NCBI GenBank assembly: GCA_965218095.1
Contig: OZ244587.1
Span: 5,472,001 to 5,536,000, forward strand
From: Candidatus Poribacteria bacterium
GTDB taxonomy: Bacteria > Poribacteria > WGA-4E > PCPOR2b
DNA length: 64,000 nucleotides
Reading direction: 5' to 3'
Part shown: one piece after another, positions 24,456-36,400 of the stretch
Position numbering within the stretch: the stretch's first letter is position 1
Layout of the letters: each line of letters begins with the position of its first letter
The notes under the pieces: model-generated
What the model saw: the letters and a program-made list of their open reading frames with translations, nothing else
Databases searched by the model: none
What the model was told of the DNA's origin: nothing
Translations under genes and position numbers: made by a program

Positions 24456-24821
24456 TTATGGCTCTTTGTAAAATGGATTATAAGTGCTCCGTTCCCCAAT
24501 TCGTCCTGCAGCCCTCCTACCTGTACTGTAGCCATCAAGCGTATTAAGTCCCTCTGTGATTCTTTCAAGATACTCTACACAGTATTCTAATGTTTCTAGG
24601 TTACGACCAAGATCGTAAATAAGAATTGATTTACCTGATTTTGTTGTTGCGAATATTGATGTTCCAGCATTTGTCTTTTCTATGAAACTAATTTCTGAAA
24701 TCCTTATAAGGCTTCCATTGTGAGTAACAAGCCACTCAGGTTCTTTATCCCTTTCTACATCTAACCCTTTACATCCTACTACTAAAAAGAACATGAAAAA
24801 TAGGCACTTTAATTTCAGCAT
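24456..24821 (-). CDS. AT-rich hypothetical lipoprotein
   Basis: Hydrophobic leader and lipobox LVVGC. Confidence 0.55.
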   Translation of the reverse strand: MLKLKCLFFMFFLVVGCKGLDVERDKEPEWLVTHNGSLIRISEISFIEKTNAGTSIFATTKSGKSILIYDLGRNLETLEYCVEYLERITEGLNTLDGYSTGRRAAGRIGERSTYNPFYKEP

Positions 24822-25409
24822 TTTTAACCCCCTATCAAGATAGAGGTATTATAGTAGAATTCACAGAAATTGGCTACCGTTTTTTAGGATATAGTAAAAG
24901 ATATGGACTATCGTGGAGATTTGCCGAATAAGCCGCTGCATGAGATTCGGGACGAAGATCATTTATTAAAGACAGTGCAGCATCTGCTGGGGATTAATGT
25001 TTAGAAACTCACTTTACTCGTTTGTCGCCCGCAAGATTTTGATTGACTTTATCTTTCGCATAAACTTTGACGCTTATTATTGTAACAAAAGTTGAAAATT
25101 AGTGCAATAATATAAATTATTGAGGAACGATAACCCCCTATGGTTTTTCTGGAACTGCTGTGCCAACTCATGCGTTTTCAAGATAATCTCGGCGGGACAT
25201 TTGCTGGAGCAAAACAGGTTTATTCAGCGCTTTGTACAACTGCCGTTCAATCGCGATCTCGTAACGACAGATTGCGACATCGCAACTATCAAAACCGTCT
25301 AAAAGTAGGTCGATTTTCCAAAATCGACATTCTGGAATAGGGAGCAACTTGCGTTAGAATAGGTAGAAACTTGGGTTAATTTAACATCCCTTCGGTAGGA
25401 GAATAATCA

Positions 25410-25523
25410 TTGCCAAAAAATAACACCGTCGTAAATACTCCACAAACAACAATTCCGTTTTCCGCATCAGATCAAGAACAATTAGACATATCCACCCTTG
25501 AAACATGGCTATGGGCTGCCGCC
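25410..25523 (+). repeat. Diverged duplicate of the hsdM 5' end (truncated hsdM)
   Basis: MPKNNT..TTIPFS..DQEQLDISTLETWLW matches 29903-30016; has its own SD AGGAG. Confidence 0.9.
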
Positions 25524-25612: not shown

Positions 25613-26254
25613 TCATGCCTCCATTGTTTTCCTTTGGTTACGTTTTAGAGATTCCACGTCGTCTAGGTGACATTTTTTATATTTCTTTCCGCTTCCACAG
25701 GGGCACAAGTCGTTTCTACCAAGGTTCCGTTCCGCGAAATTGAAGATTTCCGAGCGGTATTCCCTTAGTCCTTCTTCGCCATGCGAGTATTCTCCCCAAA
25801 GGTCATTTCGACTTGCGGCAATGCCAAATTTTTCTGTGTAAGAGAGCCAATAAAAAAATGGAATTACTAGTTCCTGAAGGAACTTTTCGATGCTAAGATC
25901 CTTGTTATCTCCGCATTTGAGACCCAAGCAACACAAGTCATCGTCTGAGTAAAAGTGCAAGTCAACGAGTGGAACGTTGCATTTTTGGGCGATTTGATAA
26001 TGCCGCCCGCTGACTTCATACACTTTTGGCCATCCGTTCGGGTCGGGAATCTCCAAGAAAATCTCAATCTCGAAAACGTCGCAAATGAAGCGGTTGGCTG
26101 TTCTGGCACCATCGTCAACTATCACTTTTCCCGATTCGCTATCATACGCGGCGCAAAAGTCAAGTTCGCCTACAATCTTTTGAGAATCTGCCTCGTATTG
26201 TAGGTTCGGAAAGCGCGATTCTAACCATTTGATGTCGCTGTTGGTTATTTTCAT
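25613..26254 (-). CDS. CBASS ancillary prokaryotic E2-like protein with C-terminal SEC-C Zn motif
   Basis: FEIEIFL..P..WPKVYE, H-x7-CCLG resembling the UBC active-site region, GEYSHG, GRNDLCPCGSGKKYKKCH; directly downstream of the CD-NTase. Confidence 0.75.
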   Translation of the reverse strand: MKITNSDIKWLESRFPNLQYEADSQKIVGELDFCAAYDSESGKVIVDDGARTANRFICDVFEIEIFLEIPDPNGWPKVYEVSGRHYQIAQKCNVPLVDLHFYSDDDLCCLGLKCGDNKDLSIEKFLQELVIPFFYWLSYTEKFGIAASRNDLWGEYSHGEEGLREYRSEIFNFAERNLGRNDLCPCGSGKKYKKCHLDDVESLKRNQRKTMEA

Positions 26255-26262
26255 GGATAAAA

Positions 26263-27210
26263 CTACCTTGCATAAGGCTTTCTGGGCGTTACTATTACCG
26301 GCGCAACACCTTTGTGAGTGTCATCCTTGAGTTTTCCAAAATTGTCATTAAACAATTCTCTCCACTTTTTGACACTGGTGTTGTGGTCTTTCGCATCAAA
26401 CGCTTCGTTGATCTTAGCGTTGTAAAGATCGAACATTTTCCGAAAATGACTATATTTGCCTTGGTCCCAGTGTCTGGTGAAACTTTCTGTAGGTAAAACC
26501 GGATTATAGATTTCGGGCATTAAGGAATTGTCCTGCAAAAAAATGTTGATCCGGTTTGAGATTATCTTTAAAGACGTTGGAATGTCCTTAAAATTTTCGC
26601 TACCCTCATCACTAGCATATACACTGTTACCAATAAGCGTGGTTAGGAGAATTGATTTTACGGAAAAGTTCCCTTTGTGGTCTCGAAGAAATTTTAACAA
26701 TCGCGTGCCCCGCTTTAAATTCCCGTTGGTAATTCTCGTTTTCTCGTTGAACCAATCCCTATAGCCTGTCCCATCAGTCTCTTCAAGGCAATTTTCCTTG
26801 TTATTGCAGATATAATGTTCCGCTCCGTCCGTAATGCAGGGAACAAGATCTAAGTGGAAGTCGCCTGCATAATCAATATAGACACACCGGGTTCTTCTGT
26901 GGACCTTATCTTCATAATTGCCGTTTTCCTTTAAGCAGTCATAAACGTCGTTGATATAGTCCTTTGGTTCTTTGTCGTCATCGGATGTCATGTACAAGAG
27001 CATATCAGCATCATATTCGCGATCGCCCACAGGTTTAATAATTGTCTTCAAGCCGTAGGAGCCTTGCCGTTCAGTCTTTTGGTATGCATCCAAATTTTCG
27101 CTGAGGTAGGTGTCCACAGCCGAAGAACTTTGATTCAACTTTTGGAGTCGCGTTTCATTAAGATTTACCTCAGTGCTGAGGAACTCTTGGAAATATGTTA
27201 TATGCTTCAT
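26263..27210 (-). CDS. cGAS/DncV-like nucleotidyltransferase (CD-NTase, SMODS)
   Basis: QGSYGLKTIIKP..EYDADM, FHLDLVP, RLLKFLRD, SILLTTL, NPVLPTESF. Confidence 0.9.
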   Translation of the reverse strand: MKHITYFQEFLSTEVNLNETRLQKLNQSSSAVDTYLSENLDAYQKTERQGSYGLKTIIKPVGDREYDADMLLYMTSDDDKEPKDYINDVYDCLKENGNYEDKVHRRTRCVYIDYAGDFHLDLVPCITDGAEHYICNNKENCLEETDGTGYRDWFNEKTRITNGNLKRGTRLLKFLRDHKGNFSVKSILLTTLIGNSVYASDEGSENFKDIPTSLKIISNRINIFLQDNSLMPEIYNPVLPTESFTRHWDQGKYSHFRKMFDLYNAKINEAFDAKDHNTSVKKWRELFNDNFGKLKDDTHKGVAPVIVTPRKPYAR

Positions 27211-27329
27211 TCTTTTTTCTCCTAATCTAATTTTCCTAGGTTTTATCGGTCACCTTCAAGATGACCTGGTATAGGATAACAGGGTTTAAGTCAAGACGTA
27301 CCAGTCTAAGCTAAACATTGTCGCAATAC

Positions 27330-28274
27330 TCAATTGTGAAAAGCATCAAATGGTTCTACTGGATTGCCAAGAAAAATCTCTTGGAGTTTAGGCAACGCGT
27401 GTCGGGCCTCAGAATGCCCAAGACCTTTCAACGAGTTAATTTCTTTTGTCCCGTCTAAATTAAACCTCCTACGGGGAACGACTGGATCAATCCTGATGAT
27501 GTTGTCATGCCCCGCAAGAAGTTTCGCTGTTCCGAGAGATCCATGGGATTGTGCGTGCATAAACACGTCAAGTAGCTTGGGTGTCCAATATGAAAGGCCG
27601 CGTGGGATTCTTCTTCCCCGATCGATATTTAATGGTTCGGTCGTACAACCTAAACTCAAGATTTTTAACGAATCTCTTGGCCACTCAAGTACCGAAATTG
27701 CTTCAACAACGGACATCCCCACAGGATTATTCGCCCACACACCACCATCTATCAAAGGAGTACCTGTAGCGGACCGATGTGCGGGAAAGTAAGTTGGGGC
27801 GGCGGAGGTTGCAAGTGCCACATCTACTGCCTTTTCCTTATAATCTCTCTCCAATCGAGGATGATGGGCGGTTTTGTAGATGTAGACCTCGCCATTTTCA
27901 AGGTTCAATGATGGAATGACAAGCCGCTTTCTGCTATCGCCCAATTTCTTTTCGCCGAAACGGTCCTTCAGTGCTTCCTTAAGAGGGGCACTATTGTACT
28001 TTGCGGTGCTAAGCCACCTAAGCCACCGTAACAAGCGATTTCCACCAAAAATGAGCGGCCCAGATTCTTCATAAAATGCCAATATCTCCTTGGCGGACAA
28101 TCCTAGACCAAGACCCAAAGCAATAATGCCGCCTGTTGAGGTCCCGACGATTAAGTCGAAGTAGTTTGCTACGTTGTCTCGAATTGAATCTTCAACAGTG
28201 GCGAGAAAGGAGGTTGGGAATACCCCCTTAATCCCGCCGCCGTCAATTGCTAGAATTCGTCTTTGTCTACTCAC
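27330..28274 (-). CDS. capV: Patatin-like phospholipase, CBASS effector (CapV-like)
   Basis: DGGGIKG, GTSTGG, SAAPTYF, DGGVWANNP; GTG start with SD AAGGAG. Confidence 0.9.
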   Translation of the reverse strand: MSRQRRILAIDGGGIKGVFPTSFLATVEDSIRDNVANYFDLIVGTSTGGIIALGLGLGLSAKEILAFYEESGPLIFGGNRLLRWLRWLSTAKYNSAPLKEALKDRFGEKKLGDSRKRLVIPSLNLENGEVYIYKTAHHPRLERDYKEKAVDVALATSAAPTYFPAHRSATGTPLIDGGVWANNPVGMSVVEAISVLEWPRDSLKILSLGCTTEPLNIDRGRRIPRGLSYWTPKLLDVFMHAQSHGSLGTAKLLAGHDNIIRIDPVVPRRRFNLDGTKEINSLKGLGHSEARHALPKLQEIFLGNPVEPFDAFHN

Positions 28275-28335
28275 TGTAACAATCTCCTTATTTTGATATT
28301 TTTCAAGTATGGGCTTAATTTTTTATGATTGCATT

Positions 28336-28364
28336 AGTATATTGTATAAAAAACGCGGTGTCAA
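28336..28364 (-). promoter_or_regulatory. Sigma70-type promoter of the CBASS operon
   Basis: Minus strand TTGACA-17 nt-TATACT, about 60 nt upstream of the capV start. Confidence 0.7.
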
Positions 28365-28393
28365 GGTTTTTTTCATTGATTCGATTTTTAGTA

Positions 28394-28422
28394 TTTACTT
28401 GAAAATCGTTTTCTTATATAAT
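28394..28422 (+). promoter_or_regulatory. Divergent sigma70-type promoter towards ddrO-irrE
   Basis: TTTACT-17 nt-TATAAT; second TATAAT at 28453-28458. Confidence 0.5.
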
Positions 28423-28457
28423 AGGGGTTACGCATATGGTCAGAAAATAGGTTATAA

Positions 28458-28493
28458 TACAGGCTATGAATCCACTACAGGCTATGAATCCAC
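28458..28493 (+). repeat. 18-bp tandem duplication
   Basis: TACAGGCTATGAATCCAC x2. Confidence 0.95.
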
Positions 28494-28601
28494 TCAAATG
28501 CACTGAATACGACTATATCAACTTTCTGACTGCGGCTCCGAGAAACTACAGTTATACCGAGACAGCCAGAATCCAACCGAAAGGAGAAAAACACCGCCAT
28601 G
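28484..28601 (+). mobile_element. Remnant N-terminus of an IS701-like transposase
   Basis: MNPLKCTEYDYINFLTAAPRNYSYTETARIQPKGE resembles remembered IS701-family N-termini (KC..YDYI.FL...Y.C.E..R.QP...AHD). Confidence 0.45.
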
Positions 28602-29852
28602 AAATTAGGAGAACGCCTTCGTTCTATTCGTAAGGAGCACAAGCTAACTTTAAAGGAGTTAAGGCAGTACGCTGACCTGTCTGTTCCCTATCTGTCGAAT
28701 CTGGAGCGTGGTATCGTTAATCCATCTATAGAAACCCTTCAAAAGATTGCTAAGGCTTATAATATAACAGTCAGGGATTTGTTTAGCGGTGTTGAGAATC
28801 TAGGAGAATCAACACATGCAACTTACCCCAAAGAATTTGAAGCATTTCTAAAGGACCCCGAGTACAGTCAGGAAATCAGTGATGACTGGAAAGAGTTACT
28901 GATGAGAATTAATTTGCGTGGCAAGCGGCCCTCCTCTAAGAGAGAATGGGTCGAATTGTATCTTCACCTTAGACGGATTCTTTCCCAACAGGAGGAAAAA
29001 GTGATTGACATAAAAGCACATGTTATCAAATTAGTTCAGAATACTGTCAGGAAATATGCTTCTACGGAAATCCCCGATTTTGATGAAGTAAGTTCCGGCT
29101 TAGGGTTAGTTGTAAAGGAGGTTCCACTACCGCCGAAAGTAAACGGGGCAATTGAAGGAAGGACAATTCTTATCAATTCCCGGATTCAAAACAAAGAGCG
29201 GAAACAATTTACTCGATTTCATGAAGTCACGCATCACTTGATCGATGAAGATGAGGAATTAATCTCTGTACTTCACGATGTCACTTGGGATCAAAATGGT
29301 GAATACGAAAGACAAGTAGAAAGGCTTTGCAACATTGGTGCGGCTGAGTTTTTGATGCCTCGCGAGGAATTTACAAAACTTTATAAAGAAAAGGGATTTA
29401 GTGTCGAACTGATTCCCTTTGCCGCCAATTATTTTGAGAGTTCGGCAATTGCGACGACCATTCAACTTGCTCAAGTTGCACCGAATTCGTGTATTACCGC
29501 TATTTGCGAATTTGGATTAATCTCGAACAAAACAGCAAGGTCTCAAGGCGATCTTTTTGATGAGAAAAATCGTACTCCCAAACCGAAGTTGCATGTGGTC
29601 TATTCGGCTTCGTCTCCCGCAACGAAATATTGGTTGGCAAGAGACACGAATATTCCCGATGACCACCTGATCAATCAAGCATTCTTGGAAGCCCAACCTC
29701 TTGAAGGGGAAAGCTATGTCCCTTTTCGTAGTGGCAATCAGATGCCTTGTGACTGTGAAGCATTGCCAGACAAAGATAGGAATAGAGTTTATGCCTTATT
29801 CCATATGATCCCTCCACCGAATCCGAATCCTGACCAATTGACATTTATTTGA
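28599..29852 (+). CDS. Fusion of DdrO-like XRE repressor (aa 1-129) and IrrE/PprI-like metalloprotease (aa 135-417)
   Basis: SVPYLSNLERG..NPSIETLQKIAKAYNITV, RINLRGKRP, W.ELYLHLRRIL (DdrO); HEVTH, ERLCNIGAAEFLMP, IPDDH, SYVPFRSG..MP (IrrE peptidase/HTH/GAF-like). Confidence 0.88.
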   Translation: MKLGERLRSIRKEHKLTLKELRQYADLSVPYLSNLERGIVNPSIETLQKIAKAYNITVRDLFSGVENLGESTHATYPKEFEAFLKDPEYSQEISDDWKELLMRINLRGKRPSSKREWVELYLHLRRILSQQEEKVIDIKAHVIKLVQNTVRKYASTEIPDFDEVSSGLGLVVKEVPLPPKVNGAIEGRTILINSRIQNKERKQFTRFHEVTHHLIDEDEELISVLHDVTWDQNGEYERQVERLCNIGAAEFLMPREEFTKLYKEKGFSVELIPFAANYFESSAIATTIQLAQVAPNSCITAICEFGLISNKTARSQGDLFDEKNRTPKPKLHVVYSASSPATKYWLARDTNIPDDHLINQAFLEAQPLEGESYVPFRSGNQMPCDCEALPDKDRNRVYALFHMIPPPNPNPDQLTFI

Positions 29853-29902
29853 GATCTGGCAATTTAAACCCTATTTCAGGAAAACAACAAGGAGCATAAC
29901 CG

Positions 29903-31543
29903 TTGCCAAAAAATAACACCGCCGCAGATACAACACAAACCACAATCCCGTTTTCCCCTCCAGATCAGGAACAGTTAGACATATCCACCCTTGAAACATG
30001 GCTATGGGACGCCGCCTGTGTGATTCGTGGGGCGACCGATGCCCCGAAATTCAAAGATTTCATCCTACCCCTGATTTTCTACAAGCGGCTCTCCGATGTG
30101 TTCGATGATGAATTTGCGAAACAGGTCGAGGAATTCGGCGATAAAGAGGTGGCGCGGGAAATCATTGACGCCGACCATCAGGACGCACTAAAGAGCGGAC
30201 GCAACCCGATTGTTCGTTTTTATATACCTAAGCAGTATTGTTGGGAGGCACTTCGTGACCATCCGCCAGATGGTCGCTTAGGAGAATTTGTCACCGAAGC
30301 GATGCGCTTGGTTGTGAGTCAGAACCCGCGGTTAAGTGGCGTCCTTGACGTACAGGACTTCAACGAACAACAGAGCGGACAGCGAACCCTTGACGATGCC
30401 CGACTAGTCTCACTGATTGAGGTCATAAGCCAACATCGGCTTGGACTTCAAGACACAGAGCCGGATATCCTAGGGCGCGCCTACGAATATCTGTTACGGA
30501 AATTTGCCGAAGGACAGGGACAGAGTGCGGGTGAATTCTACACCCCGAAAGAGGTTGGTCAGTTAATGGCACGCCTCATCAACCCCGAACCGCACACCAC
30601 CATCTACGACCCAGCCTGTGGTTCAGGCGGGCTGCTTATCAAACCCCGCCTCCTATTTAAGGAAACACATCCGGATGAACAGAGCGCGGCTCCAAGAATC
30701 TACGGGCAGGAACTGACCGCTACCACCTACGCCATGGCAAAGATGAACGCCTTTCTGCACGATTTTATCGGTGCAGATTTGCACATCGGCGACACCTTCC
30801 GCAACCCGCGTTTTGTTACCGACGATTCGGGCCTGCAACGCTTTGACTATGTGCTCGCCAATCCGATGTGGAACCAGAAGGAGTATAACGATGCCTTTTA
30901 TGCCAATGACCACTGGCAACGGTTTCCCTATGGCGTTGCGCCGAGTTCCTCCGCGGATTGGGCGTGGGTTCAGCATATACTCGCCTCCCTGAAAGAGACC
31001 GGACGCGCCGCGATTGTCCTTGACACCGGCGCGGTGTCTCGTGGTTCTGGCAGTGTGCAGACCAGTCGGGAGCGGGATATTCGCAAAAGGTTTGTGAAGG
31101 ATGACCTGATTGAAGGCGTGATACTTCTGCCCGAAAACCTGTTCTACAACACCAGCGCACCGGGGATTATTTTGCTGCTGAACTGCAGCAAGCCAACGGA
31201 ACGTAAAGCACAGATCCTGCTTATCAACCTTTCCAACTATTTCGTAAAGGAGACTCCCAAAAACGCCTTGACCGATGAAGGGATTGATCTCGCAGCGGAA
31301 GTATATCAGGCGTGGGAATTGCGTGAGAAGTTGAGCCGTGTTATCACGCTGGAAGATGCCCGAAAAACCGATTATAACCTGAGCCCTTCCCAGTTTGTGG
31401 ATGTGGGAGATAAGGTAGAACACCGTCCTATCTATGAGATTCTGGCGGACCTGACGGAAGCACGGATCGCCCGCGAAAAGGCGGATAGGACGTTGGAAGA
31501 TCTGTTGACTCGTCTTGGACTCAATGGGGAGGGTCTACAATGA
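29903..31543 (+). CDS. hsdM: Type I R-M methyltransferase subunit
   Basis: GEFYTP, YDPACGSGGLL, ANPMWN. Confidence 0.95.
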   Translation: MPKNNTAADTTQTTIPFSPPDQEQLDISTLETWLWDAACVIRGATDAPKFKDFILPLIFYKRLSDVFDDEFAKQVEEFGDKEVAREIIDADHQDALKSGRNPIVRFYIPKQYCWEALRDHPPDGRLGEFVTEAMRLVVSQNPRLSGVLDVQDFNEQQSGQRTLDDARLVSLIEVISQHRLGLQDTEPDILGRAYEYLLRKFAEGQGQSAGEFYTPKEVGQLMARLINPEPHTTIYDPACGSGGLLIKPRLLFKETHPDEQSAAPRIYGQELTATTYAMAKMNAFLHDFIGADLHIGDTFRNPRFVTDDSGLQRFDYVLANPMWNQKEYNDAFYANDHWQRFPYGVAPSSSADWAWVQHILASLKETGRAAIVLDTGAVSRGSGSVQTSRERDIRKRFVKDDLIEGVILLPENLFYNTSAPGIILLLNCSKPTERKAQILLINLSNYFVKETPKNALTDEGIDLAAEVYQAWELREKLSRVITLEDARKTDYNLSPSQFVDVGDKVEHRPIYEILADLTEARIAREKADRTLEDLLTRLGLNGEGLQ

Positions 31544-32814
31544 GTGAGATGAGTTTGCCAGCGCATTGGAAAGCGGCTAGGTTCGGAGAACTAGGAGATT
31601 TGGTTCGCGGTGTTTCTTATAAAAAACAAGAGGTAACTGATACTGCGGAGCTTGGATATTTACCAGTTCTTAGGGCAACAAACATTCAAGATAGAGAGCT
31701 AATGTTAGGAGAGGAACTAGTATACGTTAAAGCTGAAAAGGTTTCAGATTCACAGCTTTTACGCATGGGTGATGTGATAATTGCAATGTCTAGCGGAAGT
31801 AAATCTGTAGTTGGAAAATCCGCCCAGTTAAATACGGATTGGAATGGTTCTTTTGGTGCATTTTGTGCGGTTTTCCGCCATAATTCAATGGTAGAATCAT
31901 TTTTTATTGGTCATATTTTTCAGACTAAGAATTATCGGGAGCATTTACTTAGAGAAGTTCGTGGCACAAATATTAACAATTTATCGAAAAATCATATTCT
32001 TGATTATCAGTTTCTCCTTCCCCCATTTCCCGAACAACGTGCCATTGCCCACATCTTACAGGCAATTCAAGAAGCCAGATCCACCCGGCAACGCGAGATT
32101 GCGTTAGAGCGTGAACGCAAAGCGGCGTTGATGGATTATCTCTTTTCACACGGCACGAAGGGCGGAACCCGCAAGGAGACGGAGATTGGGGAAATTCCTG
32201 AGAGTTGGGAAGTAGTAAGGTTGGGGAAATACTGTTATAAACCGGATTATGGTTATACTGAGAGTGCAAGTGACTCTCCAGTTGGACCCAAATTTTTGCG
32301 AATTACGGACATTCAGAACGAAGAGGTGAATTGGGAAAAAGTTCCTTATTGTATTTGTAGTGAGGAAGACAGGGAAAAGTATTTATTAAAAGCTGGTGAT
32401 ATAGTAATTGCGCGAATTGGTGCAACTACTGGAAAAGCGTACATAGTTGATGATTGTATTGAAGCAGTTTTTGCATCGTACTTAATTCGAGTGAGAACAA
32501 AGGATGATTTATTGCCTGATTTCTTAGCTCAATACTTTCGGACAAATGGTTATTGGAGGCAGATAAACCAAAGCAAGGGGGGTAGGCTCAAAGGAGGCGT
32601 AAATATTCCCATACTTAGCTGTCTTGTGCTACCGTTACCTCGTTTTGCTGAACAACAGAAAATCGCCGAAATTCTACAAGCCTTTGACACCAAAATCGCC
32701 GCCCTTGAACAAGAAGCCGAACGATTGGATGAACTTTTCCACGCCATGCTCGACGAACTGATGACAGGGCAAAGGCCTGCCGTGCCGCTAATTGATGCAG
32801 AATTGCCAAATTAA
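31540..32814 (+). CDS. hsdS: Type I R-M specificity subunit
   Basis: Two AT-rich TRDs, LPPFPEQRAIA and LPRFAEQQKIA repeats, ETEIGEIPESWEV. Confidence 0.95.
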   Translation: MSEMSLPAHWKAARFGELGDLVRGVSYKKQEVTDTAELGYLPVLRATNIQDRELMLGEELVYVKAEKVSDSQLLRMGDVIIAMSSGSKSVVGKSAQLNTDWNGSFGAFCAVFRHNSMVESFFIGHIFQTKNYREHLLREVRGTNINNLSKNHILDYQFLLPPFPEQRAIAHILQAIQEARSTRQREIALERERKAALMDYLFSHGTKGGTRKETEIGEIPESWEVVRLGKYCYKPDYGYTESASDSPVGPKFLRITDIQNEEVNWEKVPYCICSEEDREKYLLKAGDIVIARIGATTGKAYIVDDCIEAVFASYLIRVRTKDDLLPDFLAQYFRTNGYWRQINQSKGGRLKGGVNIPILSCLVLPLPRFAEQQKIAEILQAFDTKIAALEQEAERLDELFHAMLDELMTGQRPAVPLIDAELPN

Positions 32815-33463
32815 CAGAGGAGCACAAAAGTGGAGACGCAAGCGATTCAATACCCGCAGGACTTACGCACTTCAGGGGATTCGCTAGGTAAATCAAAAAT
32901 TTACCCCGAAAATACCCGGTGGGTTGTCCGTCGGTTCCTGGCTCATTGAGCCAAGCACGGTGTGGCACAGTGTGGGTATTTGAATCAAGCCTAGAACTAT
33001 GGCGCGACGTTATGGGTATCTTCGGGATTAAGAAACATGCGCTCACCCCAAATTGTAGTTGCCTGATTCATCGGGCATCGTAGAAGGGAAAGAGGCTAGA
33101 AGGGGTCACTTCAGAAGATAACCTTAGCACTGAAACCTGCCTAAGAAGTCTTTAGGTGCCAACGTGGGGTTCCGAGTAACTTTCCGAGGACCTCCCCGTG
33201 CAAACCCCGCATAACTCAGTCATAGCCTGAGTTATCACCCTTTTTTGTCTCTATCAAATTCTCGCATTTACTATGAAAACTATGAAACTTTCAAACATCT
33301 CTCAATAGGATTTACCACTGTCTGCCATTCTTTTTTACGAAGAGAAACCGAGTTTTTTTGCCGACTCGTCGAGCATCCTCGCTACGCGGGACTTGAAAAC
33401 TCGGTTTCTGTTGCACGATTTCTTAACATGGGCGACGCCATTTACAATCATTCAGAGAAGATT

Positions 33464-36400
33464 ATGTCTGAACGTTCCGCTGTACAGAATCCGATGCTCA
33501 AATACGCCGATGAAATTGGCTGGGAGTCTATTTCTCCATCAAAAGCCGTGCAAATGCGCCGCGGCGATACGGGGCTTTACTTCAACGACGTGCTGAAAAC
33601 GCAACTGATGAAGCGCAACAAGGGCATACTGGACCAATCTCGTTGCGAGGAAATTATGCGACAGTTGCGTTTGCTCAACCCGACGCTTGAGGGAAACCGG
33701 GATGCCCTCTCTTGGTTGCACGGAGAGCAGTCGGTTTTTGTTCCGGATGAGGATCGCTATCGGAATATTACACTGATTGATTACGATACCCCCGACAACA
33801 ACCTGTTTCATGTAACCGATGAATGGTGGCAGAAAGGGGTAGTACACCGCAACCGCGCCGATGTCGTATTTCTGATTAACGGGATTCCAGTAGCGGTGGT
33901 AGAGACCAAATCCGCTAACAAGCGGGATGGATTGGCGGAAGGTGTGGAACAGATTCGACGCTACCATGACGAAACGCCGGAGATGTTTACCACCGCCCAA
34001 CTATTCGGTGTCACGCAACTGTTGGACTTTTTCTATGGCGTGACGTGGAACGTCAGCCGCAAAAACCTGTTCAACTGGAAAAGCAACAAAGCCCCCCTGA
34101 TAAGGGGGGTTGGGGGGTTGCAACACAAAGACCTGTCTAATTCAGAGAACGACGAACCGACAAACTACGAGGGTAAGGTCAAGACCTTCTTTGACCGTGA
34201 GAGCTTCCTGAAAGTGTTGCAGCGGTCGATCATTTTCCAGAGCAAGGACGACACGCTGGCCAAAGTTGTCTTGCGCCAGCACCAGACCCGTGCGGTAGAT
34301 AAGGTAATTAAGCGGGTTCACGACCCGAACAAGCGGCGCGGGCTTATCTGGCACACGCAGGGCAGCGGTAAGACCCTGACCATGATAACGATTGCGTCCC
34401 AACTATTGCGCAGTGGTGGGGAGACGGAAAAGCCGACCGTGTTAATGGTGGTTGACCGCAATGAATTGGAGAGCCAGCTTTTTAGAAATATCACCGGCTA
34501 CGGTATCACCACGCCGGAACTTGCAACGAGCATAAAACACCTACGGAAGATTTTAGCGTCCGATTATCGCGGTTTGATTGTCTCAATGATTCATAAGTTT
34601 GACAAAATACCGGCGAATATCAACACCCGGGAGGGAGTGACTGTATTGGTTGACGAAGCGCACCGGACGACCGGCGGCGATTTGGGGAATTACCTGATGG
34701 CAGCCCTCCCCAATGCGACCTATATCGGCTTTACAGGCACCCCGATTGACAACCTCGCTCAGGGCAAAGGGACCTTTAAGGTGTTCGGTGCGGACGACGA
34801 ACAGGGTTATCTGGATAAATACGCAATAGCGGAATCCATTGAAGATGGCGCCACCGTTCCGTTGAATTATGCCCTTGCCCCCTCCGATTTGCAGGTTGAC
34901 CGCGAAACATTGGAGCGAGAATTTTTAAGCCTTATGGAAGCGGAGGGTGTGAGCGACTTTGAGGAACTGGACGCAATTCTGGATCATGCTGTCAACTTGA
35001 AAGCGATAATGAAAGCCCCCGATCGAATTGACAACGTTGCCGCGTCTGTTGCCAAACATTTTCAGGGAAACGTGGAACCGATGGGATTTAAGGCGTTTCT
35101 AGTTGCCGTAGACCGTGAGGCGTGTGCGTTGTACAAGGCGGCACTCGACAAACATTTACCATCGGCGTATTCGGAGGTGGTCTATTCCCCATACCATCAA
35201 GACTCTGAAGCCATGAAAGCGTATCACCGCACCGATGACGAAGAGAAGGATATTCGTAAGAAATTCTCCGACAAAAACGAGCAGCCGAAGATTCTGATTG
35301 TGACCCAAAAGCTGTTGACCGGCTTCGACGCACCGATTCTCTACTGCATCTACCTCGATAAACCGATGCGTGACCATGTGCTGTTACAGGCAATTGCGCG
35401 TGTCAACCGACCATACGAGGACAACGACGGGCTGGTAAAACCGTACGGGTTTGTCTTAGATTTTGTCGGTATCTTTGAGAATCTCGAAAAAGCCCTTGCC
35501 TTCGATTCGGACGTGGTGGAGAGCGTGATTCAGAATCTTGACGTACTCAAGGACGCTTTCGCCGAGCGGATTCGGGAGGACGCGGCGCAGTATTTACCCT
35601 TTGCCGGCGGTTGGGACGATAAGGCGAAAGAACGGGCGATTGAGCATTTTGAGGACAAGGACAGCCGAGAGGCTTTTTTCAAATTCTTCAGACAGGTGCA
35701 GGATATCTATAACATTCTTTCGCCGGATGCCTTCTTGCGCCCGTTTATGGAGGATTATCAGTCACTTGCATCGCTCTATGGGCTGATTCGGAACGCCTAT
35801 GCTGACCGTCCTTATGTTGATAAGGAGTTGACCGCCAAGACGCGGGAACTGTTACAGCAGCATACGGAGAGCGATCAGTTTGCGCTACCGGGTTCTATTC
35901 ATGAATTGGGCGCAAATACATTGAGGGAAATTGGGGACAGTGAGGTATCGGATACGGTGCAGGTGCTGAATTTGCGGAAGGTCCTGCATAAAACGGTGAT
36001 AGAAGAAAGCCGGTCAAAGCCGTTTCTGATTTCGATTGGAGAACGAGCAGAGGCACTTAAAGAAAAGTATGAAAATCGTCAACTGACAACGCAGCAGGTA
36101 CTGGCTGCGTATGAAGAATTAGTGAAGAAATGTGAGCGGGCGTCAAGCGAACGCACCCGAATGAACTTGGACGAGAACGCCTTTGCGGTTTATAAGGTTC
36201 TTGAGGGCTATGCGGAAGACATTACACCAGAGCAGGTGCGAGCCCTCAATAGAGTCTTTGACCAATTTTCCGATTATCAGTGGAACGCACACCAAAACAG
36301 TCAGTTGCGGGGGATGTTCTACATAACATTAAGACCTATTGTTGGAACAGAAGATCTGATCGAAGCAACAAACGCATTGTTAAAGTTAGAGCGAATATGA
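33464..36400 (+). CDS. hsdR: Type I R-M restriction subunit
   Basis: [49 protein letters not shown]. Confidence 0.95.

What the first reader, a model, noticed from the sequence alone, without database searches (positions are those of the whole stretch)
25613..29852. Deinococcus-type DdrO-IrrE(PprI) switch fused into one ORF, divergent from a CBASS operon
Seen: a 417-aa ORF back-to-back with capV-CD-NTase-E2, with a near-consensus promoter (TTGACA-17-TATACT) in between. Established (from memory of the Deinococcus proteins): aa 1-129 follow DdrO end to end, including RINL106-R107GKRP at the position where IrrE cuts DdrO (RIEL/RGKRP). The rest follows all three IrrE domains (HEVTH Zn peptidase, LCNIGAAEFLMP, GAF-like IPDDH..SYVPFRSG). 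In Deinococcus these are separate genes running the radiation/desiccation regulon; CBASS is known to use an analogous but distinct repressor/peptidase pair, CapH/CapP. Inference: a one-gene, LexA-like self-cleaving damage sensor that de-represses an abortive-infection system, and possibly the downstream type I R-M, outside Deinococcota.
Basis: partly seen in the sequence, partly recalled or inferred. Interest (0 to 1): 0.92.

Follow-up and report, generated by a model that had tools for sequence, protein, structure and literature searches.

The report
Fused DdrO–IrrE-like CBASS regulator gene
A single gene joins a DNA-binding repressor to the protease that normally cuts it, next to a phage-defence operon; this kind of damage-sensing switch, including fused forms, is already described for such operons, so it is an interesting member of a known class and not a new system.

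Summary
ORF 28599-29852 (417 aa) is real. Residues 1-129 align without gaps to Deinococcus DdrO (E 1e-39, 54-55% identity), with the L106/R107-G-K-R-P cleavage loop kept. Residues 158-408 align to IrrE/PprI (E 6.5e-32; TM 0.75). It lies back-to-back with capV, a CD-NTase and an E2.

The interpretation needs correcting in three ways.
- CapH/CapP are relatives of DdrO/IrrE, not merely analogues. Lau et al. 2022 already report 15 CBASS systems with an apparent capH-capP fusion.
- In this phylum (Ca. Poribacteria-like) the same module occurs fused in 8 of the 21 loci I examined and as two genes in 13. It sits beside CBASS in 17 of the 21.
- The fused/split state changes at least 10-16 times on a 134-protein tree. 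The changes are a stop/sense substitution (CAG here, TAG in the closest genome) or 1-nt indels. Fused genes keep the peptidase's own Shine-Dalgarno and GTG start in frame.

Both halves stay under purifying selection, and the catalytic and cleavage motifs are kept in 58 of 58 fused proteins.

Most likely this is an ssDNA/damage-triggered repressor-peptidase switch for the cassette, and probably for the downstream hsdMSR. Self-cleavage in cis is untested. Verdict: new member of a known kind, moderate interest.

The parts
25397..25523 (+). Left copy of a 127-nt direct repeat: RBS and first ~38 codons of hsdM (truncated hsdM' remnant). Left border of the cassette.
   Evidence: the repeat finder D1, 87% identity to 29890-30016, spacing 4493 nt; alignment. 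The same hsdM N-terminal fragment lies beyond E2 in L037 and L045.
25613..26254 (-). CBASS E2-only Cap2-like protein with a C-terminal SEC-C motif
   Evidence: PADLOC E2 4.5e-29; Pfam SEC-C 6e-11
26263..27210 (-). CD-NTase (SMODS cyclase)
   Evidence: Pfam SMODS 1.5e-28; PADLOC cyclase 2.3e-114
27330..28274 (-). CapV patatin-like phospholipase effector
   Evidence: NCBIfam CBASS_lipase 2.1e-82 (above cut-off); PADLOC phospholipase effector 5e-106
28302..28317 (.). Conserved 16-nt element in the CBASS leader (TTCAAGTATGGGCTTA here). Candidate operator; binding not shown.
   Evidence: A palindrome-constrained sampler picked related 16-mers in the 20 other loci. In the window it picked a different site, so this site was placed by eye. 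It lies between the -10 hexamer and the capV RBS.
28336..28364 (-). CBASS promoter TTGACA-17-TATACT
   Evidence: 11 of 12 positions. The GTCAAG / TATAAT-like pair recurs in related loci.
28394..28422 (+). Regulator promoter TTTACT-17-TATAAT
   Evidence: 10 of 12 positions. The block CTTTACyTAAAA..TTTCTGrTATAmT is conserved in front of the regulator in the related loci.
28425..28560 (+). Dispersed repeat element inserted in the regulator's leader. It contains an 18-nt tandem duplication at 28461-28496.
   Evidence: 10 further copies in the same genome at 73-91% identity. Relatives have leaders of about 45 nt at this place.
28599..29852 (+). Fused DdrO-like / IrrE-like regulator, 417 aa
28599..28796 (+). 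XRE HTH DNA-binding domain (aa 1-66)
   Evidence: Pfam HTH_3 5.5e-15; 6rnz DdrO N-terminal domain, E 3.9e-19, TM 0.96 and 64% identity
28821..28985 (+). DdrO-type C-terminal dimerisation domain (aa 75-129). Predicted scissile bond L106/R107 at 28914-28919.
   Evidence: 6ro6, E 3.4e-12. R107, G108 and P111 are kept in 58 of 58 fused relatives. L106/R107 is the DdrO cleavage site in PMC6868357.
28989..29003 (+). Junction: CAG131 (TAG stop in the closest genome G054), AGGAGG at 28990-28995 and in-frame GTG135 at 29001-29003. This is the retained ribosome-binding site and start of the peptidase.
29004..29393 (+). M78 zinc peptidase domain (HEVTH 208-212 at 29220-29234; E250)
   Evidence: Pfam Peptidase_M78 8.5e-13. 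H208, E209 and E250 are kept in 58 of 58 fused and 76 of 76 split relatives.
29484..29813 (+). GAF-like C-terminal domain (aa ~296-405)
   Evidence: The alignment to PprI/IrrE runs through IPDDH and SYVPFRSG. Strand-rich fold in the AF2 model. Foldseek against PprI 8slm: TM 0.75 over 269 columns.
29890..30016 (+). Right copy of the 127-nt direct repeat (start of the intact hsdM)
29903..36400 (+). Type I R-M genes hsdM (29903-31543), hsdS (31540-32814) and hsdR (33245-36400). Probably read through from the regulator's promoter (inference).
   Evidence: Pfam N6_Mtase 7.9e-92 and HsdM_N. hsdS and hsdR are named by reading the ORFs and by their conserved order in L037 and L046; I ran no family search on them. 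No terminator-like or plus-strand promoter-like site lies between 29400 and 29903.

Best explanation
This is a CapH/CapP-class regulator, that is a DdrO/IrrE-type repressor plus M78 peptidase, in its fused form. It controls a small type II (E2-only) CBASS cassette.

Proposed mechanism, all inferred from the homologues:
- The N-terminal half (HTH plus DdrO-type dimerisation domain) dimerises and binds between the two back-to-back promoters at 28275-28598.
- Binding holds down capV/CD-NTase/E2 and the regulator's own transcript. That transcript probably runs on into hsdMSR.
- When ssDNA accumulates (DNA damage, phage replication), it binds the groove between the peptidase and GAF-like domains.
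- The peptidase then cuts the repressor half at L106/R107. The cut separates the HTH from the last dimerisation helix, so the repressor leaves the DNA and the cassette is induced.

The peptidase that cuts may be the one on the same chain, the one on a partner chain, or free peptidase made from the retained internal AGGAGG-GTG start. The data do not distinguish these.

The fused state arose here by loss of the ddrO-like stop codon (TAG to CAG). It is one of two interconvertible, apparently equivalent forms of the module in this clade.

Shown here: homology, motif conservation, gene context, promoters, lability of the fusion, purifying selection. Inferred: DNA binding, the ssDNA trigger, the cleavage itself and read-through into hsdMSR.
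For: - Homology: residues 1-129 align to DdrO end to end (E 1e-39) and residues 158-408 to PprI/IrrE (E 6.5e-32).
- Fold: Foldseek on an AF2 model (pLDDT 83.7) ranks PprI first (TM 0.75, 33% identity), then DdrO (54-55% identity). CapP reaches TM 0.51.
- Plasmids: among 72,556 plasmids the only matches at E<=1e-8 are 5 Deinococcus ddrO paralogues.
- Motifs: R107, G108 and P111 are kept in 58 of 58 fused proteins, with P1 = L in 16, F in 36 and Y in 6. H208, E209 and E250 are kept in 58 of 58 fused and 76 of 76 split proteins.
- Cut sites in the literature: DdrO is cut at L106/R107 (PMC6868357) and CapH at F82/R83 (Lau et al.).
- ssDNA contacts: two of the three PprI patch-1 arginines have counterparts (R85 = R201, R267 = R396); R207 is V334. 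I mapped these by hand from the alignment and the numbering in PMC10904395.
- Context: 17 of 21 loci have CBASS genes divergent from the regulator. The other 4 have AbiTii, an AAA ATPase, a Schlafen-domain protein or unknowns.
- Selection on the repressor half: median dN/dS is 0.114 in 25 fused-fused pairs and 0.146 in 60 split-split pairs.
- Published function of the class: CapH represses CBASS, and ssDNA-activated CapP cleaves it after DNA damage (Lau et al. 2022, passages read).
- Promoters and the absence of a terminator before hsdM.
Against: - No experiment or expression data bear on this locus. The public runs gave only contigs.
- No clear operator was found. The Deinococcus RDRM consensus is not enriched: mean best mismatch is 3.19 against 3.42 +/- 0.16 in shuffles. 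The conserved 16-nt element is only weakly palindromic.
- One of the three ssDNA-contact arginines of PprI is not conserved.
- In the window a repeat element has replaced the leader segment just downstream of the regulator's -10 hexamer, a segment that relatives conserve. Autoregulation may therefore differ here.
- DdrO is cut as a monomer, and its cleavage site is buried in the dimer (PMC6868357). Whether a 288-aa C-terminal extension allows normal dimerisation is unknown.
Confidence: 0.62

Rival explanations
1. The fusion is a tolerated accident with no function of its own. The working parts are still a repressor and a free peptidase made from the internal SD-GTG start. The long polypeptide is only a substrate carrying an inert tail (no cis activity), and lineages drift in and out of the fused state.
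For: - The fused/split state changes at least 16 times (10 forced by well-supported branches) among 134 rows.
- One substitution (TAG/CAG) or a 1-nt indel is enough to switch.
- 7 of the 8 fused loci with DNA keep a GGAGG-type site 5-7 nt before an in-frame GTG, and the eighth has ATG. GTG makes up only 29 of 169 Val codons (17%) in these genes.
- All 37 rows of the commonest junction type have V, M or L at that codon, and all 17 rows of the second type keep an M four residues upstream.
Against: - A clade of 22 rows is entirely fused.
- The repressor half of fused genes is as constrained as in split genes, so the fused chain must itself be the working repressor, since no free DdrO-like protein can be made there.
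- Five of the seven GTG observations come from one clade, so they are not independent.
Confidence: 0.2
2. The peptidase half inactivates the repressor half without cutting it, by competing for the dimer interface, as reported for the phage pair Rir/Crh.
For: PMC6868357 (passages read) describes COG2856/XRE pairs that act by inhibiting oligomerisation without cleavage.
Against: HExxH and the downstream Glu are kept in 134 of 134 rows. The R-G-x-x-P loop that is cut in DdrO is kept in 58 of 58 fused rows. The closest characterised relatives, IrrE and CapP, both cleave.
Confidence: 0.05
3. The protein is mainly the controller of the downstream type I R-M operon, and CBASS is a bystander.
For: The regulator is followed after about 50 nt by hsdM-hsdS-hsdR on the same strand here and in L037 and L046. 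No promoter-like or terminator-like site lies between them.
Against: Only 3 of 21 loci have hsdMSR downstream, whereas 17 of 21 have CBASS divergent. The direct repeats show that the cassette, including the regulator, was placed in front of a pre-existing hsdM.
Confidence: 0.08
4. The single ORF is an assembly or sequencing error that removed a stop codon.
For: The closest genome in the species set (G054, 75% identity) has TAG where the window has CAG.
Against: P0001 (96% identity, 417 aa, from another contig) and 49 further fused homologue clusters exist. A public-run contig covers 28634-29068 with no differences, though that run may be the source sample.
Confidence: 0.02

Closest known systems
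CapH/CapP, the CBASS-associated repressor and ssDNA-activated M78 peptidase (Lau et al. 2022, EMBO J / bioRxiv 10.1101/2022.04.27.489752; bioRxiv 10.64898/2026.05.16.725639)
   Same: - HTH repressor plus a three-domain (peptidase, HTH-like, GAF) M78 peptidase, encoded upstream of and opposite to CBASS.
- Cut after a hydrophobic residue and before Arg (CapH F82/R83; here L/F/Y before R107).
- Fused capH-capP forms are already noted (15 systems), as is association with other defence cargo.
- PADLOC models hit: capP 6e-21 and capH 2.5e-10.
   Different: - By sequence it is much closer to Deinococcus DdrO/IrrE than to the solved CapH/CapP: E 1e-39 and 6.5e-32 against 7.8e-5 and 0.018.
[quoted passage not shown] In CapH the cut is in the first helix.
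- The same genome holds a canonical capH/capP pair elsewhere that fits the PADLOC models far better (capP 1.3e-53, capH 2e-20).
- I did not examine whether the CapP cysteine switch is present.
- I could not see Lau's Table S1, so I do not know whether their 15 fusions belong to this clade.
DdrO/IrrE(PprI) of Deinococcus (radiation/desiccation response)
   Same: - End-to-end alignment of both proteins, with 54-55% and 31-33% identity.
- The same cleavage loop and the D96 partner residue.
- HExxH plus Glu.
- A GAF-like domain with the IPDDH and SYVPFRSG motifs.
   Different: - One polypeptide instead of two unlinked genes.
- Sits in a mobile defence cassette in a Poribacteria-like genome, not at the head of a DNA-repair regulon.
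- No RDRM-like operator.
- R207 of the ssDNA patch is not kept.
- On a tree of DdrO-like proteins the defence-linked clade is separate from the two Deinococcus plasmid DdrOs, with weak support (SH-aLRT 88-91).
ImmR/ImmA (ICEBs1) and generic XRE-COG2856 fusions (RamB/PrpR-type, spr1629-type antitoxin, PADLOC RmrA)
   Same: XRE HTH joined to or paired with an M78/COG2856 domain. The RmrA models (about 380 aa, fused) hit at 5e-11 to 1e-9. The Mtb regulator 6cz6 is a structural hit with TM 0.46.
   Different: Those lack the DdrO-type C-terminal domain, the cleavage loop and the IrrE-type GAF domain. Sequence similarity is limited to the HTH and the HExxH region.
LexA / lambda CI autoproteolytic repressors (recalled textbook knowledge)
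   Same: A single chain that carries DNA binding, dimerisation and the protease that destroys it, triggered through ssDNA.
   Different: Those are Ser-Lys self-cleaving proteases that need RecA-ssDNA filaments. Here the protease is a zinc metallopeptidase domain expected to bind ssDNA itself. Cis cleavage is not shown here.

Membership tests
DdrO family (XRE repressor with DdrO-type C-terminal domain) | N-terminal XRE HTH domain | tested here: met
   Pfam HTH_3 5.5e-15; 6rnz E 3.9e-19
DdrO family (XRE repressor with DdrO-type C-terminal domain) | Three-helix C-terminal dimerisation domain alignable to its end | tested here: met
   6ro6 (C-terminal domain alone) E 3.4e-12, residues 75-129. The full-length alignment 1-129 has no gap.
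DdrO family (XRE repressor with DdrO-type C-terminal domain) | Basic cleavage loop x-L|R-G-K-R-P between the last two helices | tested here: met
   INL106-R107GKRP aligns to IELRGKRP. R107, G108 and P111 are kept in 58 of 58 fused rows. G108 and P111 are at least 90% conserved in 37 DdrO-like proteins.
DdrO family (XRE repressor with DdrO-type C-terminal domain) | Binds the 17-bp RDRM palindrome | tested here: not met
   The RDRM consensus printed in PMC8533742 is not enriched and not positionally conserved in 21 intergenic regions (3.19 against 3.42 +/- 0.16 mismatches). This tests only for presence of the motif, not binding.
DdrO family (XRE repressor with DdrO-type C-terminal domain) | Stand-alone protein of about 130 aa | tested here: not met
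   Fused to 288 further residues here. 13 of 21 related loci have it stand-alone.
IrrE/PprI family | HExxH plus downstream Glu zinc site | tested here: met
   H208, E209, H212 and E250 present. H208, E209 and E250 were counted and are conserved in 134 of 134 rows; H212 was not counted across the set.
IrrE/PprI family | Three domains: peptidase, HTH-like linker, GAF-like | tested here: met
   phmmer alignment over residues 158-408; Foldseek TM 0.75 to 8slm over 269 columns
IrrE/PprI family | ssDNA-binding patch 1 (R85, R207, R267 of DG-PprI) | tested here: inconclusive
   R201 and R396 correspond to R85 and R267; V334 stands for R207. Mapped by hand.
IrrE/PprI family | Cleaves its cognate repressor on DNA damage | not testable with these tools
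   Needs biochemistry.
CapH/CapP (Lau et al. 2022) | HTH gene and M78 peptidase gene upstream of, and opposite to, core CBASS genes | tested here: met
   17 of 21 related loci likewise.
CapH/CapP (Lau et al. 2022) | Match to family profiles | tested here: inconclusive
   PADLOC capP 6.1e-21 (profile positions 7-189 of 242) and capH 2.5e-10. The capP model also rings in D. radiodurans and B. subtilis controls, and it scores another locus of this genome at 6e-56.
CapH/CapP (Lau et al. 2022) | [quoted passage not shown] | not tested
   Not examined. IrrE lacks it according to 10.64898/2026.05.16.725639.
Type II (E2-only) CBASS | CD-NTase, E2-like Cap2 and effector in one operon | tested here: met
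   The subtype name is recalled from the CBASS classification literature.

The most novel reading that the evidence does not exclude
The fused chain is a true single-molecule switch: an ssDNA-gated zinc peptidase that cuts its own repressor half in cis. That would make it a metalloprotease counterpart of LexA/CI autoproteolysis, with a first-order response independent of concentration. The frequent one-nucleotide flips between fused and two-gene forms would then be a way for lineages to retune the induction threshold of an abortive-infection system. A corollary is that the Deinococcus radiation switch and these defence-island regulators are one family that moved between chromosomal stress control and mobile immunity.
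Probability: 0.25. Interest if true: 0.6.

Novelty: new member of a known kind. Interest (0 to 1): 0.4.

Why it matters
- Evolutionary link: a CBASS cassette in a distant phylum is governed by a pair about 55% identical to Deinococcus DdrO along its whole length. This ties the radiation-response switch and defence-island regulators together more closely than the solved CapH/CapP structures suggest.
- A natural experiment: the same module exists fused and unfused, one nucleotide apart. That is useful for asking whether tethering the protease to its substrate changes the sensitivity or speed of induction.
- Ready-made constructs: the CAG131/TAG pair gives a ready fused/split pair of constructs for testing cis against trans cleavage in the CapP/IrrE family, where enzyme-substrate binding has been hard to capture.
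- Limits: as a catalogue item it is not new. CBASS regulators of this class, and fused forms of them, are already in print.

Tried and rejected
- Homodimer prediction of the full-length protein (2 copies, alignment A1): no support (score 0.04 and 0.01, mark 0.42). This is no evidence either way.
- A structural hint of cis docking: the AF2 model shows isolated beta-bridges at residues 106 and 109. The N-terminal half modelled alone shows the same pattern. It is therefore a local turn and says nothing about docking onto the peptidase. No coordinates were available to measure distances.
- Operator search:
  - Exact dyad counting found only A/T runs.
  - The palindrome-constrained sampler mostly recovered the two promoters, the RBS and one conserved 16-nt element of weak symmetry.
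  - The RDRM consensus is not enriched.
  - I therefore name only a candidate operator.
- Naming distant relatives: the listing of cluster members on 10 representatives returned no names, so the taxa of the wider DdrO-like and IrrE-like families remain unknown to me. No Deinococcus IrrE sequence could be brought into a tree, and only two plasmid DdrO paralogues were used.
- The search for related loci in genome contigs gave one true relative of 5 loci; the other 4 matched only the HTH.
- Public runs: all four runs laid are contigs. Two RNA-library runs hold small, 90-95%-alike pieces of capV, the regulator's 3' part and hsdM. This shows neither transcription nor ends. No variant at 28989 appeared in the part of the table shown (140 rows were not shown).
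- P0210 (406 aa, DdrO-like part at its C-terminus) is not a reversed fusion: its first 278 residues have no M78 hit.
- Supplementary Table S1 of Lau et al. could not be seen. It may list whether the 15 reported fusions are of this DdrO-like type.
- Literature searches for a characterised self-cleaving capH-capP or DdrO-IrrE fusion and for Poribacteria CBASS found none beyond the one-line mentions in Lau et al.
- Rows dropped:
  - Tree: 7 of the 120 proteins listed, whose lengths fell outside 270-300 or 395-470 aa.
  - Context survey: 5 of the 17 two-frame split loci were not fetched.
  - dN/dS: pairs with dS above 2.5 were left out.

Full report
**What is there**

The window holds a 417-aa ORF at 28599-29852 (+). 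Three genes lie opposite it on the minus strand:
- a patatin phospholipase (27330-28274; NCBIfam CBASS_lipase 2.1e-82);
- a CD-NTase (26263-27210; SMODS 1.5e-28);
- an E2-like protein with a SEC-C motif (25613-26254; PADLOC E2 4.5e-29).

Together these make a small E2-only type II CBASS (the subtype name is recalled). hsdM (29903-31543) follows the regulator after 50 nt on the same strand, then ORFs that read as hsdS and hsdR.

The 324-bp gap holds two back-to-back promoter-like sites:
- TTGACA-17-TATACT for CBASS (28364..28336, minus strand, 11 of 12 positions);
- TTTACT-17-TATAAT for the regulator (28394-28422, 10 of 12 positions).

**The two halves**

Pfam sees HTH_3 (residues 7-61) and Peptidase_M78 (185-285). 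Against all PDB sequences:
- Residues 1-129 align without a gap to D. deserti DdrO residues 1-129 (E 1.1e-39).
- The DdrO C-terminal domain alone also matches (6ro6, E 3.4e-12).
- Residues 158-408 align to D. geothermalis PprI (E 6.5e-32) and residues 182-411 to D. deserti IrrE (E 4.2e-26).
- The solved CapH N-terminal domain and CapP reach only 7.8e-5 and 0.018.

An AF2 model (pLDDT 83.7, pTM 0.72) searched against the PDB with Foldseek gives:
- PprI first (TM 0.75, 33% identity);
- then DdrO (54-55% identity);
- then an M. tuberculosis XRE-fusion regulator (6cz6) and CapP (TM 0.51, 13% identity).

Among 72,556 plasmids the only tblastn matches at E<=1e-8 are five Deinococcus ddrO paralogues.

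The DdrO scissile bond L106/R107 and its partner D96 are documented in PMC6868357 (passages read). The window has D96, L106 and R107 at the same positions.

**What is already known**

Lau et al. 2022 (bioRxiv version, passages read) searched around 6,233 CD-NTases and found 408 CBASS systems with a nearby metallopeptidase. Most have capH and capP upstream on the opposite strand. The authors present CapP as strongly similar to IrrE and the pair as functionally parallel to DdrO/IrrE. They show that CapH represses CBASS and that ssDNA-activated CapP cuts CapH at F82/R83 after DNA damage. [quoted passage not shown]

The class, its position beside CBASS and the existence of fused forms are thus in print. 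I found no study of a fused form.

The PADLOC capP and capH models do hit this protein (6.1e-21 and 2.5e-10). They are not discriminating, however. The capP model also rings in D. radiodurans and B. subtilis controls. It scores a different locus of this same genome at 6.4e-56, and that locus is a canonical two-gene capH/capP pair.

**Relatives and context**

The genome is one 6.35-Mb contig. A genome of the same family carries the title 'Candidatus Poribacteria bacterium'.

I searched 176 genomes of the phylum, and 40 have a match at E<=1e-10. They break down as follows:

| Class | Genomes |
|---|---|
| Both halves in one uninterrupted frame (the window's included) | 8 |
| Both halves in one frame but cut by a contig end | 1 |
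| One frame with an internal TAG (G054) | 1 |
| Two adjacent, mostly overlapping genes | 17 |
| Fragments only | 3 |
| Weak matches only | 10 |

I fetched 20 of these loci. With the window this gives 21 loci: 8 fused and 13 split. In 17 of the 21 the divergent neighbours are CBASS genes (tblastn with the window's CapV, CD-NTase and E2; PADLOC cyclase for L044 and L046). The other four have AbiTii (L042), an AAA ATPase of the PtuA/AriA type (L050), a Schlafen-domain protein (L053) or unknown genes (L048). This matches the published picture of CapH/CapP-like regulators attached to varied defence cargo.

In a library of 1.84 billion representatives, 59 proteins match at E<=1e-30. Among the best 150, only one representative (P0030) carries both halves. 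Fusion of this DdrO-like type therefore seems confined to this clade.

A wider family of stand-alone DdrO-like proteins keeps the R-G-x-x-P loop. On a tree of these proteins the defence-linked clade is separate from two Deinococcus plasmid DdrOs, with weak support.

**The fusion is labile and keeps an internal start**

At the junction the window reads TCC-CAA-CAG-GAG-GAA-AAA-GTG. That is an AGGAGG site five bases before an in-frame GTG at codon 135. The closest genome of the species set (G054, 75% identity, same hsdMSR context) has TAG where the window has CAG131, followed by the same site and GTG as the start of a separate peptidase gene. Other split loci differ from fused ones by a 1-nt shift, with overlapping stop and start codons.

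Evidence that fused genes keep the peptidase's own start:
- 7 of the 8 fused loci with DNA keep a GGAGG-type site before an in-frame GTG, and the eighth has ATG.
- GTG accounts for only 29 of 169 Val codons in these eight genes. Five of the seven GTG cases are from one clade, so they are not independent.
- Among the 58 fused proteins there are at least three junction types. All 37 of the commonest type have V, M or L at that codon. All 17 of the second type keep an M four residues upstream, where 28 split peptidases begin. All 4 of the third type have M.

On a maximum-likelihood tree of the peptidase part (134 rows: 58 fused, 76 split; 7 of 120 homologues dropped for odd lengths), the fused/split label needs at least 16 changes, 10 of them forced by well-supported branches. 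One clade of 22 rows is entirely fused.

The fusion is not decay:
- R107, G108 and P111 are kept in 58 of 58 fused proteins (P1 is L in 16, F in 36 and Y in 6).
- H208, E209 and E250 are kept in all 134 rows.
- The repressor half has median dN/dS 0.114 in 25 fused-fused pairs against 0.146 in 60 split-split pairs (many pairs are near saturation).

**How it most likely works**

By homology with DdrO/IrrE and CapH/CapP, the N-terminal half is the repressor of the divergent CBASS promoter and of its own promoter. The C-terminal half is an ssDNA-stimulated zinc peptidase that cuts at L106/R107, removing the last dimerisation helix from the HTH and releasing repression.

Two of the three arginines that PprI needs for ssDNA binding have counterparts here (R201, R396). 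The third is V334 (hand mapping).

In fused genes no free repressor can be made, so the long chain must be the repressor. Free peptidase may still be made from the internal start. Whether cutting is in cis, in trans, or by free peptidase is open. The AF2 beta-bridge at residues 106/109 that looked like docking is also present in the N-terminal half modelled alone, so it says nothing on this. The homodimer job gave no answer.

I could not define an operator:
- The Deinococcus RDRM consensus (PMC8533742) is not enriched.
- A conserved 16-nt element lies in the CBASS leader of the other 20 loci. In the window it is at 28302-28317, placed by eye. It is only a candidate.

**The cassette and its surroundings**

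A 127-nt direct repeat (87% identity) brackets a 4.49-kb unit that carries E2, the CD-NTase, CapV and the regulator. The repeat comprises the RBS and first 38 or so codons of hsdM, at 25397-25523 and 29890-30016. The unit has 42-44% G+C against about 50-55% in most of the rest of the window. The same hsdM fragment follows E2 in two other genomes (L037, L045), and hsdMSR follows the regulator in L037 and L046.

The cassette was thus placed at the 5' end of hsdM. That leaves the intact hsdMSR with no promoter-like or terminator-like site between it and the regulator. Co-transcription, and hence damage-inducible R-M, is a reasonable inference but is untested.

In the window only, a dispersed repeat (28425-28560; 10 other copies in the genome at 73-91% identity) sits right after the regulator's -10 hexamer, where relatives have a short conserved leader. 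This may alter autoregulation here.

**Verdict**

It belongs, however, to the already described CapH/CapP class, for which fusions have been noted. Within its clade the fusion is a frequently reversed, one-nucleotide variant that keeps the means to make the peptidase separately.

I rate it a new member of a known kind, interest 0.4. The bolder reading, a true cis-acting and LexA-like metalloprotease repressor whose fused and split forms tune induction, is not excluded (about 0.25). The experiments listed under decisive next steps would test it directly.

Noticed in passing
window 28425-28560: A dispersed repeat about 136 nt long, with an internal 18-nt tandem duplication at 28461-28496, is inserted in the regulator's leader. 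Ten more copies lie in the same genome at 73-91% identity. In two metagenome runs its contig depth is 10-50 times that of the flanks.
   Followed up: partly
window 25397-25523 and 29890-30016; L037 13897-14007; L045 14101-14214: The 5' end of hsdM is duplicated on the far side of the CBASS cassette, here and in two other genomes. This suggests that the start of hsdM is a recurrent insertion or recombination site for this cassette.
   Followed up: partly
L002 1426-2223 (-) and 2226-2582 (-), = G000:C1 about 5.2928-5.2940 Mb, roughly 208 kb upstream of the window: The same genome has a canonical two-gene capH (118 aa, PADLOC 2e-20) and capP (265 aa, 1.3e-53) pair. The divergent neighbour (L002 2877-3593) has no PADLOC hit and only a sub-threshold Pfam LysM match, so its cargo is unknown.
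   Followed up: partly
L040 6869-8803 (-): A 644-aa ORF spans both a CD-NTase-like match (8629-7844) and an E2 match (7591-6962). It looks like a CD-NTase-E2 fusion next to a fused regulator.
   Followed up: no
P0210 (406 aa, unnamed metagenome protein): A DdrO-like module (HTH plus C-terminal domain, 45% identity) sits at the C-terminus (residues 279-405), behind 278 residues with no Pfam or PADLOC hit.
   Followed up: partly
P0132 (1002 aa) and P0202 (703 aa): Long proteins with 10 and 8 separate matches to the HTH part of the query, i.e. arrays of XRE HTH domains.
   Followed up: no
L042 7711-8631, L050 7635-9212, L053 6362-7786: The same regulator module sits beside non-CBASS cargo: AbiTii, a PtuA/AriA-like AAA ATPase, and a Schlafen AlbA_2-domain protein.
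   Followed up: partly
window 24456-24821 (-): A 121-aa ORF in the low-GC stretch left of the cassette has no Pfam or PADLOC hit.
   Followed up: partly
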